Part shown: positions 1-3,707 of the stretch, in pieces
Layout: each line of letters opens with the position of its first letter
Numbering within the stretch: the stretch's first letter is position 1
DNA from: Escherichia coli
GTDB lineage: Bacteria > Pseudomonadota > Gammaproteobacteria > Enterobacterales > Enterobacteriaceae
Strand: one strand, 5' to 3'
DNA length: 3,747 nt
NCBI RefSeq assembly: GCF_003334255.1
Contig: NZ_QOWU01000116.1
Notes under the pieces: generated by a model
Databases searched by the model: none
What the model saw: the letters and a program-made list of their open reading frames with translations, nothing else
What the model was told of the DNA's origin: nothing
Program-made: the position numbers and the translations under genes

Positions 1-134
1 GTGAAGACAGCGACCTCCGTCTGGCCGGTTCGGATTCGTACCTCGCAGAGGTCTTTCCTCGTTACCAGTGCCGTCACTATGACGGTTAAACAGATGACGA
101 TCAGGGCGATTAACATCGCCTTTTGCTGCTTCAT
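1..134 (-). CDS. hokD: Hok-family type I membrane toxin HokD/RelF, 3'-truncated by the window edge (first 44 codons present)
   Basis: Minus-strand ATG at 134-132 with AGGAG 9 nt upstream (complement of 144-148). My manual translation is MKQQKAMLIALIVICLTVIVTALVTRKDLCEVRIRTGQTEVAVF, which I recognise as the Hok/Gef-family toxin encoded downstream of relE in E. coli. It is below the size cutoff of the ORF track and runs off the window at position 1. Confidence 0.85.
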   Translation of the reverse strand, partial: MKQQKAMLIALIVICLTVIVTALVTRKDLCEVRIRTGQTEVAVF

Positions 135-205
135 AGCCTGCTTCTCCTGTCAACGCAAAGCAGAAGTGTCACCTTCGGTGCGAAACAGAGATGTCATGCT
201 TTGGT

Positions 206-493
206 TCAGAGAATGCGTTTGACCGCCTCGCTATATACTTCCGAGCGTTCTCTTTTCCCAACAGAAATCACGAAAACGACAACTTTCTCGTCTATAACCT
301 GGTATACAAGGCGATAGCCTGAAGACCGGAGCTTAATCTTGTAACAATCAGGCATACCACGGAGCTTGTTTGCTTCAATCCGGGGTGACTCAAGTACTTC
401 AACCAGCTTCTTTTTCAACTGTTCACGTACCGTCGAGCCCAGCTTTCGCCATTCCTTTAGTGCCCGCTCGTCAAAATCCAGAAAATACGCCAT
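206..493 (-). CDS. relE: RelE type II toxin (ribosome-dependent mRNA endonuclease)
   Basis: 95-aa ORF MAYFLDFDERALKEWRKLGSTVREQLKKKL...VISVGKRERSEVYSEAVKRIL, recognised from memory as E. coli RelE. Its ATG (493-491) overlaps the relB stop codon by 1 nt (TGATG on the minus strand), the canonical coupled arrangement. Confidence 0.96.
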   Translation of the reverse strand: MAYFLDFDERALKEWRKLGSTVREQLKKKLVEVLESPRIEANKLRGMPDCYKIKLRSSGYRLVYQVIDEKVVVFVISVGKRERSEVYSEAVKRIL

Positions 494-732
494 CAGAGTT
501 CATCCAGCGTCACACGTACTGGCTTAGGATTACGAAGCCGTTCTTTCACTATCTCCACAAGTTCAGCATCTTCATCACTCAGGAGTGTCTGTTTGAACGG
601 CAAGCGTTCATTGTCAGCGATATACTCGAGCATGAGACGAAGCGCTTCAGAAGGAGTTACACCCATTTTTTCAAGCGCGGCGTAAGAACGCGCTTTAAGT
701 TCATCGTCAATACGCAGGTTAATGCTACCCAT
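493..732 (-). CDS. relB: RelB type II antitoxin (ribbon-helix-helix autorepressor)
   Basis: 79-aa ORF MGSINLRIDDELKARSYAALEKMGVTPSEALRLMLEYIADNERLPFKQTLLSDEDAELVEIVKERLRNPKPVRVTLDEL, recognised as RelB. GAGGTG Shine-Dalgarno sits 6 nt upstream of the ATG (complement of 739-744). The gene lies immediately upstream of relE in the same orientation. Confidence 0.96.
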   Translation of the reverse strand: MGSINLRIDDELKARSYAALEKMGVTPSEALRLMLEYIADNERLPFKQTLLSDEDAELVEIVKERLRNPKPVRVTLDEL

Positions 733-742
733 GTCTTACACC

Positions 743-796
743 TCTTGTAATTACAAATGTCATTACAAGTATCGCACTACAACATGCTTAGGGCAA
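743..796 (-). promoter_or_regulatory. relBE promoter with relO operator
   Basis: Minus strand reads TTGCCC (791-796) - 17 nt - GATACT (768-773), followed by CTTGTAATGACATTTGTAATTACAAG, which holds two TTGTAAT repeats and a perfect 12-bp palindrome TTGTAATTACAA (745-756). This matches the known RelB/RelB-RelE autoregulatory operator architecture. Exact -35/-10 assignment is by eye. Confidence 0.7.
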
Positions 797-1062
797 GTCA
801 CGAAGGAAGTCAGAAAGTAGTCGTAAGAACGGTGATCACTGTCCGCTTTGTGCCAGGAGCAGCCATTGCTAAGTCCATCCTGTATTGTGCAGGTCAGCTC
901 GTTTTTAAAGAGTCCGGCCATCATCTTACTGGTACAGACACCATATACTTTGTGACGGTCAGGCTACATATGCACAACTCAACTTATTCATCTATTTTTT
1001 GCTTTAGCATGTCAGTGTTGCTTTCTCGTCGGCGGGTGAGCGGTGACCTGACCTGTCGATAA
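757..1062 (+). CDS. ydfV: Hypothetical 101-aa ORF divergent from relB; position and length correspond to the annotated E. coli prophage ORF ydfV; coding status doubtful
   Basis: It is the only ORF of 60 aa or more in the relB-flxA gap that does not overlap a confident gene. Its ATG lies inside the relO operator, it has no Shine-Dalgarno, and the product is S/T/V/R-rich with no motif I recognise. The symbol is assigned from synteny (hokD-relE-relB-ydfV-flxA) and length as I recall them, not from sequence identity. Confidence 0.3.
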   Translation: MSLQVSHYNMLRASHEGSQKVVVRTVITVRFVPGAAIAKSILYCAGQLVFKESGHHLTGTDTIYFVTVRLHMHNSTYSSIFCFSMSVLLSRRRVSGDLTCR

Positions 1063-1214
1063 AGGAACGTAACACGTTTTATGCAACACCCGCATGCGGC
1101 AGAAAATTATTGCCGAACGTTTACCCCTGTCAACAAGCTTTACTTTCTGAGGCGCGCCAGCCCGCGAGGAAAACAATCTGAACATCAAACAATTAATGAC
1201 ACAAGAAATACGAT

Positions 1215-1241
1215 TAAAGATTTTTTTGTGCATGCCGATAG
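1215..1241 (+). promoter_or_regulatory. Sigma-28 (FliA) class 3 flagellar promoter driving flxA
   Basis: TAAAGATT (1215-1222) - 11 nt - GCCGATAG (1234-1241) against the consensus TAAAGTTT-N11-GCCGATAA, a 7/8 match in each element. It sits 24 nt upstream of the flxA start codon. Confidence 0.8.
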
Positions 1242-1264
1242 TGCTTTTTTAAAAGGAGAAATCT

Positions 1265-1597
1265 ATGTCTGTCACAATTCAGGGAAATACCTCAACCGTT
1301 ATTTCAAACAACTCCGCCCCGGAAGGAACATCAGAAATAGCCAAAATCACAAGACAAATTCAGGTGCTGACTGAAAAGCTTGGGAAAATCTCATCGGAAG
1401 AGGGGATGACGACACAGCAGAAAAAAGAAATGGCTGCATTGGTACAGAAGCAAATTGAAAGCCTCTGGGCTCAACTGGAGCAGTTGTTAAGGCAGCAGGC
1501 AGAGAAAAAGAATGAAGACGCGACAGTTCAGCCTGATAAAAAAGAAGAGAAAAAAGACGATACAAATACCGCTGGCACCATTGATATTTACGTCTAA
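1265..1597 (+). CDS. flxA: FlxA, FliA-regulated protein (small hydrophilic, coiled-coil-like, K/E/Q-rich)
   Basis: 110-aa ORF with AAGGAG (1253-1258) 6 nt upstream of the ATG, a sigma-28 promoter directly upstream and an intrinsic terminator directly downstream. The product MSVTIQGNTSTVISNNSAPEGTSEIAKITRQIQVLTEKL... is recognised as FlxA of the E. coli Qin prophage. Confidence 0.9.
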   Translation: MSVTIQGNTSTVISNNSAPEGTSEIAKITRQIQVLTEKLGKISSEEGMTTQQKKEMAALVQKQIESLWAQLEQLLRQQAEKKNEDATVQPDKKEEKKDDTNTAGTIDIYV

Positions 1598-1611
1598 GTG
1601 ACAGCCGTATT

Positions 1612-1634
1612 GTGGCCCTCATCGGGCCACTTTT
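1612..1634 (+). terminator. Rho-independent terminator of flxA
   Basis: GTGGCCC (1612-1618) - TCATC loop - GGGCCAC (1624-1630) followed by TTTT (1631-1634), starting 15 nt after the flxA stop codon. Confidence 0.75.
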
Positions 1635-2033
1635 CGCCATCAGCCTTTTCTTTAAAGACATATTATCTTTGTATCATTTCTGATAGTTAACATTACAAGA
1701 TATAAGTAATGGACGCACTCCCAATTAGTCTATTTAAATCGCCACGAGTTTAACTGACAACCCATGATCAATTATGAATTGCAACTATTTCTGTAGTCAC
1801 TTTTGTGGGGACAGTCCACAAAACTGCCAACTTCCGCTTCTTGCTCTTAGCGGACATTAGCATAGGCTATTTACCATAACGCCTCATTACGCGCACCGCC
1901 CAGACTGACTCAGCGCGTTTCTGGCATATCCCCGGTAAAACAAGTAACAAACCACCCGAAAATGAACACCAGAAACGCGACTTAAGAATCTACCCTATGA
2001 ATGGATATGCACTCAACCGAATCGATCTTGGTT

Positions 2034-3347
2034 TCAATCTTTTTTATCGGGATCAGGCTTCTTTTTAGGTAACTTCGGGGGCTTAACTTGCTGATGACTT
2101 TGCGTTCGGCGCGTAAGCCAGGGATGGTCAGCTTTAGGTTTAACATAGTATTTTGAGCGTAAATCAATACGGGCATTATCCACTCGTTCATGGACACTCT
2201 TTTCATCATCCAGTGGTATAGGCTCCGGGCCATCAACATACTTTTCCCAGCCCAGCGCTTTCCCGTCATACAGAACGTTAATTTCACCGTCAAAGTTCTC
2301 GCATACAGTAACAACCGAATGCCTAAGTCGATATCCCCGGCCCTCACTGCGTACCTGAAACGCACTGCTTTTGTACTGGAAAGTGAGATTTTTAGACAGA
2401 ACGCGCTTCGCCTGTAGGCTGAAGATATAACCCAGTTCCTCTTCAGAATGGTGCACATCAAGATGAGCATTATCAGTAGTACGAGGCGACGTAGCGAACC
2501 GGTTGTTATAGGCTTCAATAAAGGTCGGCAACCATGCATTTGCTGTTTCAATATCACTGATATTCTGAAGCCGCATTTCTTTGACCAGCCTGTCCTGTAG
2601 TGTCTGATTGGCGCGCTCTACCCGCCCTTTTGCCTGCGGGCTGTTGGCATGGATTGGCTCGATGCCCAGTGTCTTTATCGCACGAGTGAACTGGGTCAGC
2701 TCACCTTCCCGCTCTGGGTTATTTACCCTGAATATACTGTGTCTATCAGAGTAGAGAGCGAGCGATACGCCATGATCATTAAGGTAACCCCGGAGGGTTT
2801 CCATGTAAGCCCGGGTTGTTTCAGCAGGCACAAAACGCAACGCCATCAACGCACTGGTGGCATCATCAATGAAAACGATCAGTGTACATCTGGGGCCTCG
2901 ATTTTCAAACCAGTCATGAGGTGAGCCATCAATCTGGATCAGTTCACCGTAAGATGGTCGTCGCATGCGGCGTTGATATATACGGGCAATTTTACGACGG
3001 CGTTCACGCCATAACCCCTCTTCTATCATCCACTTTCTGAGAGTTTCAACGGATAAAGATAAACCGTGTATCTCGCGCAATTTTTCGCACGCAAACGTAG
3101 GTCCAAAATCAGCGTAACGGCCTTTGAGGAGTGAAATTACTGTTGCTCTGAATTCAGTAGAAAAGGAATTATTAGGACGCTTTCCACGTCGGTGGGAAAC
3201 CAGACCAGAAGGCCCTTCATTTCTATACCGTTGCACCAGACGTTTAACCTGCCGAATAGAAATGCCAATGCGTGCCGCAGCTTGTTCCTGAATAATCTGA
3301 AGTCGGTGGAGTTCCTTATGACTCATCGTAACAGTCTCTTTGATCAT
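2034..3347 (-). CDS. DDE transposase with N-terminal helix-turn-helix and integrase-core (rve-like) catalytic domain; IS481/ISNCY(IS1202-group)-like
   Basis: 437-aa ORF. The N-terminus (ELHRLQIIQEQAAARIGISIRQVKRLVQRYR) looks like a helix-turn-helix. Candidate catalytic triad in typical rve context and spacing: D in LIQIDGSPHDW, D in LALYSDRHSIF, E in AKGRVERANQTLQD. The C-terminus is basic and proline-rich (KPPKLPKKKPDPDKKD). GGGGGA Shine-Dalgarno sits 6 nt upstream of the ATG. Family placement is by motif recall, not alignment. Confidence 0.9.
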   Translation of the reverse strand: MIKETVTMSHKELHRLQIIQEQAAARIGISIRQVKRLVQRYRNEGPSGLVSHRRGKRPNNSFSTEFRATVISLLKGRYADFGPTFACEKLREIHGLSLSVETLRKWMIEEGLWRERRRKIARIYQRRMRRPSYGELIQIDGSPHDWFENRGPRCTLIVFIDDATSALMALRFVPAETTRAYMETLRGYLNDHGVSLALYSDRHSIFRVNNPEREGELTQFTRAIKTLGIEPIHANSPQAKGRVERANQTLQDRLVKEMRLQNISDIETANAWLPTFIEAYNNRFATSPRTTDNAHLDVHHSEEELGYIFSLQAKRVLSKNLTFQYKSSAFQVRSEGRGYRLRHSVVTVCENFDGEINVLYDGKALGWEKYVDGPEPIPLDDEKSVHERVDNARIDLRSKYYVKPKADHPWLTRRTQSHQQVKPPKLPKKKPDPDKKD

Positions 3348-3355
3348 GAAAAATC

Positions 3356-3375
3356 CCCCAGAGAATTGTCTGGGG
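3356..3375 (-). promoter_or_regulatory. Stem-loop in the transposase 5' leader that would sequester the Shine-Dalgarno
   Basis: The minus-strand RNA would read CCCCAGA-CAAUUC-UCUGGGG, 7-bp arms with a 6-nt loop. The 3' arm overlaps 4 of the 6 nt of the GGGGGA Shine-Dalgarno (3354-3359), which lies 6 nt before the ATG at 3347. Confidence 0.4.
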
Positions 3376-3524
3376 ACATTTTAGAATGGTTCAAAGGGGA
3401 CATTACAGCTTGGTGTTAACAATAGCCTGCTTCTCCGTGCCTTTCGGCACGTAAGAGGCTAACCTACATGTGTCTAGCATGAAATTGGCCTCAGATTAAT
3501 GTTAAGCGTCTTGCAGGACGCGTA

Positions 3525-3707
3525 ATGTTAACTGGGGCTTTTCTCTATCTGCCGTTGGTGTCCATGCCCGAGGCAGATAGCCTCAAGCACCCGCAGTCAT
3601 TCTACTTAACTAAGATTTCCCCGCAAACCGTTTTTGTCCAGCACAGTAAATATCCAACTAAACCAATGGAGTTCGCTGTATTTACCGCCAGTATTCAATG
3701 CACATGA
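3525..3707 (+). CDS. Hypothetical 60-aa protein, unknown function
   Basis: ORF with AGGA (3515-3518) 6 nt upstream of the ATG. Its TGA stop (3705-3707) overlaps the ATG (3704-3706) of a following in-frame-shifted ORF, the ATGA arrangement typical of translationally coupled genes. I do not recognise the product. Confidence 0.3.
   Translation: MLTGAFLYLPLVSMPEADSLKHPQSFYLTKISPQTVFVQHSKYPTKPMEFAVFTASIQCT

What the first reader, a model, noticed from the sequence alone, without database searches (positions are those of the whole stretch)
1215..1597. Flagellar sigma-28 promoter embedded in the prophage next to the toxin module
The near-consensus FliA promoter TAAAGATT-N11-GCCGATAG places flxA in the class 3 flagellar regulon although it sits in prophage DNA between a toxin-antitoxin operon and a transposase. 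This is known for flxA, but the motif quality is unusually clear here and gives a motility-linked transcriptional input into this region.
Basis: partly seen in the sequence, partly recalled or inferred. Interest (0 to 1): 0.25.

Follow-up and report, generated by a model that had tools for sequence, protein, structure and literature searches.

The report
Known FliA promoter of flxA
The motif is real and is the already-published flagellar sigma-28 promoter of E. coli flxA; what I add is that the promoter accompanies this gene family across enteric bacteria and reached the Qin prophage as cargo of a transposon.

Summary
Observation confirmed. TAAAGATT-N11-GCCGATAG lies at 1215-1241 (+), 23 nt before the flxA ATG. 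It is the only such site in the window. It scores 19-21 bits on a FliA matrix built without it; the next best site scores about 10, and 0 of 300 random windows reach it.

Interpretation supported, and already known. The identical 28-mer is listed for flxA in the E. coli K-12 FliA ChIP-seq/RNA-seq study (expression 280 in wild type, 2 in a fliA deletion). Microarray and genomic SELEX data agree. The motif is good but ordinary for a class 3 promoter (rank 9-13 of 52).

Added here:
1. In 51 of 56 loci encoding FlxA-like proteins (about 30-66% identity; chromosomes of many Enterobacteriaceae, plasmids), the best sigma-28 hit in the whole locus lies no more than 40 nt upstream of the gene. The promoter belongs to the gene family, not to the prophage.
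2. flxA is cargo in a 3,274-bp transposon (148-3421). It carries relBE and an ISEsa1-type transposase and is flanked by an exact 15-bp duplication. It is inserted between hokD and its sok leader. Empty sites occur in 266 genomes.
3. A hairpin terminator (1612-1634) probably limits the motility-linked transcription to flxA.

FlxA function remains unknown.

The parts
1215..1222 (+). -35 element TAAAGATT of the sigma-28 promoter (7 of 8 matches to TAAAGTTT)
   Evidence: identical to the flxA motif in PMC4183435 Table 2
1234..1241 (+). -10 element GCCGATAG (7 of 8 matches to GCCGATAA), 11 nt after the -35 element
   Evidence: GCCGATA is exact in 47 of 50 distinct promoter sites of flxA-like genes
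1247..1250 (+). Inferred transcription start (not measured here), giving a leader of about 15-18 nt
   Evidence: Inference from the usual distance of sigma-28 starts from the -10 element. The ChIP-seq peak centre 1644411 corresponds to about window 1247, by my conversion assuming the NC_000913.2 position of flxA recalled from memory; this is consistent with the published motif centre
1254..1258 (+). Shine-Dalgarno sequence AGGAG, 6 nt before the ATG
   Evidence: sequence
1265..1597 (+). flxA coding sequence, 110 aa, FlxA-like family PF14282. Predicted disordered N- and C-termini and a helical hairpin (helices 24-42 and 50-86)
1612..1634 (+). Intrinsic terminator: stem GTGGCCC/GGGCCAC, loop TCATC, then TTTT
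   Evidence: -17.3 kcal/mol, z = -2.9; 1 of 200 shuffles folds as well
860..1828 (.). Variable cargo segment of the transposon. It holds the 3' part of the ydfV ORF, the sigma-28 promoter, flxA and its terminator. In two plasmids about 11.7 and 10.5 kb of other DNA (metal-resistance genes, with IS insertions) occupies this slot
   Evidence: (backbone homology covers 143/144-859 and 1829 onward)
148..3421 (.). 3,274-bp transposon: terminal repeat, relE, relB, cargo (ydfV/flxA), ISEsa1-type transposase, terminal repeat. The ends read TGTCAACGC... and ...GGTGTTAACA
   Evidence: (22 of 30 inverted-repeat match; next best in the window is 18)
133..147 (.). Left copy of the 15-bp target-site duplication ATAGCCTGCTTCTCC; it overlaps the hokD start codon
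   Evidence: two copies in the window, one copy in the empty-site locus L074
3422..3436 (.). Right copy of the 15-bp target-site duplication
1..134 (-). hokD coding sequence, 5' part (the 3' end lies beyond the window's left edge)
206..732 (-). relB (493-732) and relE (206-493) type II toxin-antitoxin operon; part of the transposon backbone
2034..3347 (-). Intact 437-aa IS1202-family (ISNCY, ISEsa1-like) transposase ORF. K-12 keeps only its last 185 nt (ydfW)
   Evidence: (NF033594, 452 bits against a cut-off of 250)
3422..3604 (-). hok mRNA leader / sok region, cut off from hokD by the insertion
   Evidence: (Rfam RF01794, 104 bits against a gathering score of 59)

Best explanation
Positions 1215-1241 are the functional sigma-28 (FliA) class 3 promoter of flxA. 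FliA holoenzyme binds the two octamers. It starts transcription a few bases after 1241 (inferred at about 1247-1250). The product is a short-leader, probably monocistronic flxA mRNA that ends at the hairpin at 1612-1634. flxA is therefore expressed only when the flagellar cascade has released FliA from FlgM. The promoter is an ancestral, conserved part of the flxA-like gene cassette throughout Enterobacteriaceae. It did not evolve in the prophage. The cassette sits in the cargo slot (860-1828) of a relBE-bearing IS1202-family (ISEsa1-type) transposon (148-3421). That transposon inserted, with a 15-bp target duplication, between the hok leader and the hokD start codon of a Qin-like prophage. 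Shown: the motif and its statistics, identity to the K-12 site, published FliA binding and FliA dependence, family-wide positional conservation, and the transposon boundaries with empty sites. Inferred: the exact start site, the efficiency of the terminator, and the function of FlxA.
For: Motif and statistics. Identity to K-12 across 1-2218. Published in-vivo evidence on the identical sequence: FliA ChIP-seq plus RNA-seq, 280 against 2 (PMC4183435); microarray -28.4-fold and +8.2-fold (PMC1935009); sigma-28 holoenzyme SELEX peak (PMC5493296); flxA rises 35-fold together with class 3 genes in hyper-motile flhDC-upstream mutants (PMC11237407). The original report is Ide and Kutsukake 1997, Gene 199:19 (reference list). 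No sigma-70-like promoter was found on the + strand upstream of flxA. Family-wide conservation: in 51 of 56 loci encoding FlxA-like proteins, the best matrix hit in the whole locus (both strands, about 1-6 kb) lies no more than 40 nt upstream of an in-frame ATG, mostly 23-32 nt. Chance predicts 0.26 such loci. Mean pairwise identity is 0.91 for the -10 block and 0.34 for the spacer, and GCCGATA is exact in 47 of 50 distinct sites. DNA homology between the window and a 66%-identical homologue begins at 1205, 10 nt before the -35 element. Terminator. Transposon.
Against: No experiment was done on this strain; the in-vivo evidence comes from K-12 and is applied here because the sequence is identical. 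The start site is inferred. The terminator tail has only four T residues and the simple terminator scan missed it, so some read-through antisense to the transposase is possible. In the comparative scan the conserved -10 block is partly a result of choosing best matrix hits, and the loci are phylogenetically related; only the position and rank of the hit are free of that bias. Five of 56 loci fail the criterion: the upstream sites in L042, L067 and L063 rank 2nd-3rd in their loci, the L059 site ranks 11th, and L062 (a Burkholderiaceae MAG) has its best hit 137 nt upstream.
Confidence: 0.92

Rival explanations
1. The motif is a chance match in AT-rich prophage DNA and does not drive transcription.
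For: Short consensus patterns do occur by chance: 14 of 200 shuffles of the window gave at least one match at up to 3 mismatches.
Against: The matrix score is 19-21 bits against a maximum of 16-17 in 300 random windows. Published FliA ChIP-seq and a 140-fold loss of expression in the fliA deletion apply to the identical sequence. The site is conserved in position in 51 of 56 homologous loci.
Confidence: 0.01
2. The promoter arose in the Qin prophage, as a phage 'moron' promoter that newly connected a phage gene to the host flagellar regulon.
For: flxA lies in prophage DNA in E. coli and matches a phage protein family of unknown function (phrog_11044). One sequenced induced phage, PhiR42_1, carries it.
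Against: Only 1 of 50,697 phage records encodes it. Chromosomal flxA-like genes in the conserved gltX-flxA-yfeR-yfeH-ypeB-ligA neighbourhood, and in many Enterobacteriaceae genera, carry the same promoter at the same distance. The gene entered Qin inside a transposon, and Qin-like prophages with the uninterrupted site lack flxA.
Confidence: 0.04
3. flxA is driven mainly by another input (a sigma-70 promoter or direct FlhDC activation), and FliA only contributes.
For: One paper calls flxA 'a gene of the FlhDC regulon' (PMC6551532). Several flagellar operons have dual class 2 and class 3 promoters (general knowledge).
Against: Expression falls to 2 of 280 units in the fliA deletion, so little FliA-independent transcription remains. 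No sigma-70-like site lies on the + strand upstream. FlhDC dependence follows indirectly because fliA is a class 2 gene.
Confidence: 0.03

Closest known systems
flxA promoter of E. coli K-12 MG1655 (Ide and Kutsukake 1997; Fitzgerald et al. 2014)
   Same: The sequence is identical over window 1-2218, including the 28-mer TAAAGATTTTTTTGTGCATGCCGATAGT, the leader, the coding sequence and the terminator.
   Different: Nothing differs in the promoter itself. Downstream, K-12 has lost everything to the right of 2218: most of the transposase, the right terminal repeat, the right copy of the target duplication and the hok leader. The transposon structure therefore cannot be seen in K-12.
Canonical class 3 flagellar promoters (fliC, tar, motA, flgM, tsr, yhjH)
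   Same: Two octamers with an 11-nt spacer, FliA binding, and near-complete loss of expression in a fliA deletion. Matrix score and fold change fall in the same range.
   Different: The gene product is dispensable for motility (title of Ide and Kutsukake 1997), has no known function, and lies on mobile DNA.
IS1202-family elements; ISEsa1 as defined in ISfinder (1,609 bp, inverted repeats 15/22, no target duplication detected)
   Same: The transposase matches the ISNCY_2 model. The ends start with TGT. The 15-16-bp target duplication falls in or next to the published ranges for one family subgroup: 15-17 bp in the abstract and 16-17 bp in the results of the bioRxiv survey, and 16-28 bp for the 'long' subgroups in PMC10132070..
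   Different: The unit bounded by the duplication is 3.3 kb here and 14.1 kb in plasmid pEcl1-1. It carries relBE plus variable cargo, and both insertions lie at the same place in hok/sok loci. ISfinder's 1.6-kb ISEsa1 seems to be only the transposase end, which would explain why no duplication was found for it. I could not find a matching inverted repeat at the presumed inner end near 1829.
relBE-hokD ('relBEF') operon of Qin (Gotfredsen and Gerdes 1998; Ramisetty and Santhosh 2016, as cited in PMC6379469 and PMC5120126)
   Same: The published view is that relBE was acquired horizontally from plasmids and integrated next to hokD, which is then co-transcribed with it.
   Different: In those papers the mobile unit is taken to be the toxin-antitoxin pair itself. 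Here the unit is delimited: terminal repeats, a 15-bp duplication, a transposase, and flxA as co-cargo. I found no description of this in the papers searched.

Membership tests
Sigma-28 (FliA) class 3 promoter | -35 TAAAGTTT and -10 GCCGATAA octamers separated by 11 nt | tested here: met
   14 of 16 matches with exact spacing. 19-21 bits on a matrix built without this site; 0 of 300 random windows reach it.
Sigma-28 (FliA) class 3 promoter | Correct position and orientation upstream of a gene, with a ribosome-binding site | tested here: met
   The 28-mer ends 23 nt before the ATG. AGGAG lies at 1254-1258. The same geometry (23-32 nt) holds in homologous loci.
Sigma-28 (FliA) class 3 promoter | FliA-RNA polymerase occupies the site in vivo or in vitro | not testable with these tools
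   Published for the identical K-12 sequence: ChIP-seq FAT 16 (PMC4183435) and a holoenzyme SELEX peak (PMC5493296).
Sigma-28 (FliA) class 3 promoter | Transcription depends on fliA | not testable with these tools
   Published: 280 against 2 by RNA-seq; -28.4-fold and +8.2-fold by microarray.
FlxA-like protein family (Pfam PF14282) | Significant match to the family profile over most of its length | tested here: met
   E = 2.9e-14, residues 7-101 against model positions 2-96 of 101. The alignment with 17 relatives shows a shared Ser/Gly-rich N-terminus, a central coiled coil and a C-terminal IDIY(I/V) motif.
IS1202-family transposon | DDE transposase of the family | tested here: met
   NF033594 ISNCY_2, 452 bits against a cut-off of 250. 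The near-identical (99.65%) transposase gene on plasmid pYK16-mcr-10 is annotated 'IS1202-like element ISEsa1 family transposase'.
IS1202-family transposon | Terminal inverted repeats beginning 5'-TGT | tested here: met
   Positions 148-177 against the reverse complement of 3392-3421 match at 22 of 30; both begin TGT; the next best match in the window is 18 of 30.
IS1202-family transposon | Long target-site duplication (15-17 bp in the ISTde1 subgroup) | tested here: met
   An exact 15-bp repeat flanks 148-3421. A different exact 15-16-bp repeat flanks the 14.1-kb relative in pEcl1-1.
IS1202-family transposon | Uninterrupted (empty) target sites exist | tested here: met
   266 complete E. coli genomes carry the reconstructed empty site (those listed match in one piece). 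Locus L074 has a single copy of the 15-mer and no relE, flxA or terminal repeat.
IS1202-family transposon | The unit transposes | not testable with these tools
   Only inferred, from two insertions with different duplications.
[quoted passage not shown] | hok mRNA leader / sok structure contiguous with a hok coding sequence | tested here: not met
   The leader (3422-3604; Rfam RF01794, 104 bits) and the hokD coding sequence (1-134) are both present, but 3,274 bp of insert separates them.
Flagellar type III late export substrate (considered for FlxA) | Export into the medium that depends on the flagellar export apparatus | not testable with these tools
   Hints only. FlxA rose in an E. coli exoproteome together with FlgK, FliD, FliC, FlgL and FlgM, but cytoplasmic CheY rose too (PMC6391000). 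FlxA protein and mRNA changed in opposite directions at 42 C, a condition in which FlgM secretion is impaired (PMC6551532).
Flagellar type III late export substrate (considered for FlxA) | Disordered N-terminal export signal | tested here: inconclusive
   Residues 1-21 have pLDDT below 50 in a mediocre model (mean pLDDT 63.5). This is compatible but not specific.

The most novel reading that the evidence does not exclude
FlxA-like proteins are an ancestral, conserved member of the sigma-28 regulon of Enterobacteriaceae, and they are late substrates of the flagellar type III export apparatus (like FlgM or the hook-associated proteins). The Qin copy is a captured cassette. It was delivered by a previously undelimited relBE-bearing ISEsa1-type transposon that targets the junction between the hok leader and the hok start codon, and the same insertion created the K-12 relBE-hokD operon.
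Probability: 0.2. Interest if true: 0.55.

Novelty: already known. Interest (0 to 1): 0.2.

Why it matters
The promoter adds nothing new: flxA has been a textbook non-flagellar member of the FliA regulon since 1997 and was re-confirmed genome-wide in 2014.

Two by-products are modestly useful.

1. The sigma-28 promoter sits at a fixed distance upstream of flxA-like genes in many genera and in chromosomal, plasmid and prophage contexts. This marks FlxA as a conserved late-flagellar protein of unknown function, not a prophage oddity, and makes it a reasonable candidate for functional study, for example for export through the flagellum.

2. The window preserves what K-12 has lost: the right end and target duplication of a transposon carrying relBE, flxA and an ISEsa1 transposase, inserted into a hok/sok locus. 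This explains three things: why hokD has no sok or leader of its own and is co-transcribed with relBE, why flxA lies next to a toxin module, and possibly why ISfinder records no target duplication for ISEsa1.

Tried and rejected
1. Comparison within E. coli to test promoter conservation was uninformative. All but one of the 1,206 matching records (1,203 genomes) are at least 99% identical over 1100-1640.
2. The search for related loci with the 18-sequence alignment failed because no stretch was conserved enough. A 5-sequence sub-alignment worked.
3. FlxA function could not be inferred. NCBIfam gave no hit. PHROGs gave only families of unknown function. A PDB profile search gave generic and designed coiled coils. 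The AlphaFold model is mediocre (mean pLDDT 63.5, a helical hairpin), and Foldseek against the PDB gave nothing at E <= 0.001.
4. The supplementary tables of PMC6551532, needed for the direction of the FlxA protein and mRNA changes at 42 C, are not held.
5. I looked for an inverted repeat at the ISfinder-style inner end of ISEsa1 (near 1811-1840). The best match was 12 of 20, which is not convincing. I therefore rejected the reading that a 1.6-kb IS simply landed beside flxA, in favour of the 148-3421 unit.
6. I first used two plasmid copies of the IS to define its right end. Both are truncated at about 3397-3399 by other IS insertions, so they were misleading.
7. Literature searches for FlxA secretion found only the one exoproteome paper.
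8. The simple terminator scan did not list the flxA terminator, which has four T residues where the scan needs five. Folding was used instead.

Full report
OBSERVATION

The window reads TAAAGATT at 1215-1222, an 11-nt spacer at 1223-1233 and GCCGATAG at 1234-1241, on the + strand. AGGAG follows at 1254-1258 and the ATG of a 110-codon ORF at 1265 (ORF 1265-1597). The motif matches the sigma-28 consensus TAAAGTTT-N11-GCCGATAA at 14 of 16 positions. It is the only site in the window, on either strand, within 3 mismatches; shuffles give a mean of 0.07 matches.

I built a weight matrix from the FliA sites of Fitzgerald et al. 2014 (PMC4183435, Table 2), leaving out flxA. The site scores 19.1 bits with all 51 other sites and 21.2 bits with the 24 strong ones. 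The runner-up in the window scores 9.4-10.2 bits. None of 300 random windows reaches the observed score; their maxima are 15.9 and 16.8. 'Unusually clear' is too strong: the site ranks 9th-13th of the 52 in-vivo sites.

WHAT THE REGION IS

The window is 100% identical to many E. coli chromosomes and lies in the Qin prophage. The gene order is:
- hokD (runs off the left edge), relE (206-493) and relB (493-732), on the minus strand;
- the annotated ORF ydfV (757-1062) and flxA (1265-1597), on the plus strand;
- an intact 437-aa ISNCY/IS1202-type transposase (2034-3347), on the minus strand (NF033594, 452 bits).

FlxA matches Pfam PF14282 at E = 2.9e-14. E. coli K-12 is identical to the window over 1-2218 and then diverges. 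It keeps only the last 185 nt of the transposase gene, annotated ydfW.

IS THE PROMOTER FUNCTIONAL?

This is already settled in the literature for the identical K-12 sequence.
- Fitzgerald et al. list exactly TAAAGATTTTTTTGTGCATGCCGATAGT for flxA. They report a FliA ChIP-seq peak (FAT 16) and expression of 280 in motile MG1655 against 2 in the fliA deletion, marked significant.
- Zhao et al. 2007 found -28.4-fold in a fliA deletion and +8.2-fold five minutes after FliA induction.
- Shimada et al. 2017 recovered the ydfV-flxA spacer by genomic SELEX with sigma-28 holoenzyme.
- flxA rises 35-fold with other class 3 genes in hyper-motile mutants.

The sigma-70 scan finds no + strand promoter upstream of flxA. 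Directly after the stop codon there is a hairpin, GTGGCCC-TCATC-GGGCCAC (1612-1630), followed by TTTT. It folds at -17.3 kcal/mol with z = -2.9. No same-strand gene follows, so the FliA-dependent transcript is most likely monocistronic. The start site (about 1247-1250) is inferred, not measured.

DOES THE PROMOTER BELONG TO THE PROPHAGE OR TO THE GENE?

Within E. coli, flxA and its promoter occur in 1,203 of 5,426 complete genomes, essentially without variation. I therefore looked outside E. coli.

A search of 1.84 billion representative proteins found a small family (48 hits). I retrieved DNA for nine relatives at about 30-66% identity and for 47 loci from named genomes. Of those 47, 46 could be scanned; L064 lacks upstream sequence. 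With the window, that makes 56 loci. The named genomes include Enterobacter, Leclercia, Lelliottia, Kluyvera, Kosakonia, Citrobacter, Cedecea, Yokenella, Trabulsiella, Buttiauxella, Siccibacter, Pluralibacter and Phytobacter.

Several loci whose gene content was listed show a conserved chromosomal neighbourhood, gltX - flxA-like - yfeR (LysR) - yfeH - ypeB - ligA. One relative lies next to traI on a conjugative element.

In 51 of the 56 loci, the best sigma-28 matrix hit in the entire locus (both strands, about 1-6 kb) lies on the coding strand no more than 40 nt before an in-frame ATG, mostly 23-32 nt. Chance predicts 0.26 such loci. In four of the remaining five loci a weaker site sits at the same position (ranks 2, 2, 3 and 11). 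The fifth is a doubtful Burkholderiaceae match.

Across 50 distinct sites GCCGATA is exact in 47. Mean pairwise identity is 0.91 for the -10 block, 0.54 for the -35 block and 0.34 for the spacer. The high -10 identity is partly a result of picking best hits; the rank and position of the hit are not. DNA homology between the window and a 66%-identical homologue starts at 1205, ten bases before the -35 element.

The promoter is therefore an inherited part of the gene cassette. FlxA-like proteins look like a conserved sigma-28 regulon member of Enterobacteriaceae. Only 1 of 50,697 phage records encodes FlxA.

HOW IT CAME TO LIE NEXT TO THE TOXIN MODULE

Rfam reports a strong 'sok' match at 3421-3592 on the minus strand (104 bits). 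This corresponds to the leader of hok mRNA.

An intact plasmid hok/sok locus aligns to the window in two pieces. The hok coding sequence plus 14 nt aligns to window -83..148. The leader aligns to window 3422-3604. The two pieces overlap in the 15-mer ATAGCCTGCTTCTCC. That 15-mer occurs twice in the window, at 133-147 and 3422-3436. It flanks a 3,274-bp segment that begins TGTCAACGC and ends GGTGTTAACA. The two ends form a 22 of 30 inverted repeat; the next best match in the window is 18.

A reconstructed empty site (rem-hokD-leader, one copy of the 15-mer) is present in 266 complete E. coli genomes. Locus L074 shows it base by base and lacks relE, flxA and the terminal repeat.

In Enterobacter hormaechei plasmid pEcl1-1 the same ends bound a 14.1-kb unit: relE, relB, an ISSen4 insertion, chromate and nickel resistance genes, and the transposase. 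It is flanked by a different exact 15-16-mer, GGACCCATACATCTC(C), and its right flank is again a hok leader variant. This is an independent insertion at the equivalent place.

The backbone shared by the variants covers window 148-859 and 1829-3421. Positions 860-1828 form the cargo slot, which here holds the flxA cassette. The same block, at 99.65% identity over window 130-3296 by megablast (98.4% over 130-3492 with a more permissive alignment), lies on IncFII plasmid pYK16-mcr-10.

Published work on the IS1202 family says the terminal repeats start with TGT. One subgroup makes 15-17-bp duplications. ISEsa1 is recorded as 1,609 bp with no detectable duplication. That would follow if the true mobile unit is the larger one.

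Earlier papers say relBE integrated next to hokD from plasmids. In the papers I could search, the transposon, its duplication and flxA as co-cargo are not described. This is a literature gap within my reach, not proof of novelty.

FLXA FUNCTION

Function is unknown. The predicted structure has disordered ends and a helical hairpin, with mean pLDDT 63.5. There are no informative fold or sequence relatives.

Two published hints fit export through the flagellum. FlxA rose in an E. coli exoproteome together with FlgK, FliD, FliC, FlgL and FlgM, although CheY rose too. FlxA protein and mRNA moved in opposite directions at 42 C, where FlgM secretion is impaired; the direction could not be checked. 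I rate this idea at about 0.2.

VERDICT

The finding is correct, and it is already known. The added context is solid computationally: a family-wide promoter, transposon cargo and a terminator. It is of moderate specialist interest only.

Noticed in passing
window 133-3436 (transposon 148-3421; 15-bp repeats at 133-147 and 3422-3436): relE-relB-ydfV-flxA-transposase forms one 3,274-bp transposon with TGT...ACA ends and an exact 15-bp target duplication. It is inserted between the hok leader and the hokD start codon. Empty sites exist in 266 E. coli genomes. An independent 14.1-kb relative with metal-resistance cargo and a different 15-16-bp duplication sits at the equivalent site in plasmid pEcl1-1.
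   Followed up: yes
window 3421-3604, minus strand: Orphan hok mRNA leader / sok region (Rfam RF01794, 104 bits; match at 3421-3592). It is cut off from the hokD coding sequence by the insertion and is deleted in K-12. This explains why hokD is known as a hok gene without sok that is co-transcribed with relBE.
   Followed up: yes
window 757-1062 (+), junction at 859/860: The annotated ORF ydfV straddles the boundary between the conserved transposon backbone (up to 859) and the variable cargo (from 860). It has no NCBIfam or PHROG match. It may be a chimeric, non-functional reading frame.
   Followed up: partly
window 1133-1106, minus strand: Near-consensus sigma-70-like promoter TTGACA-16 nt-AATAAT (11 of 12) in the ydfV-flxA spacer. 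It points leftward, antisense to ydfV and towards relB. No known transcript is assigned.
   Followed up: no
window 2034-3347, minus strand: The transposase ORF is intact here (437 aa) but 27 nt shorter than the 446-aa ISEsa1 transposases on plasmids. A near-identical chromosome is annotated as a pseudogene plus ydfW, although its ORF looks uninterrupted. K-12 keeps only the ydfW remnant.
   Followed up: partly
L069 at about 3098 and L070 at about 3086-3088 (equivalent to window about 3397-3399): In two Klebsiella plasmids homology to the window ends at almost the same point inside the transposase-proximal end of the element. In L069 an ISKpn38 (IS3-like) transposase gene follows immediately. 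In L070 the adjoining sequence resembles the same kind of IS end, but no gene is annotated there. This may be a small insertion hot spot.
   Followed up: no
L003 3249-3276 and L016 3252-3279 (inside the flxA-like coding sequence); window counterpart 1513-1540: A second sigma-28-like site lies inside the 3' part of some flxA-like genes: 17.7 bits in L003, 10.6 bits in L016, and about 8 bits in the window. Its significance is unknown.
   Followed up: no
FlxA protein (window 1265-1597): Published proteomics places FlxA in a culture exoproteome beside the flagellar late export substrates FlgK, FlgL, FliD, FliC and FlgM. Another study reports opposite protein and mRNA changes at 42 C, when FlgM export is impaired. 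This hints that FlxA may be exported by the flagellar apparatus.
   Followed up: partly
L007, L008, L012, L014 and L015: In the loci whose genes were listed, the flxA-like gene sits in a fixed chromosomal slot, between gltX and a divergent LysR regulator (yfeR), followed by yfeH, ypeB and ligA. From memory of the K-12 map, E. coli has other genes at that position and carries flxA only on mobile DNA.
   Followed up: partly
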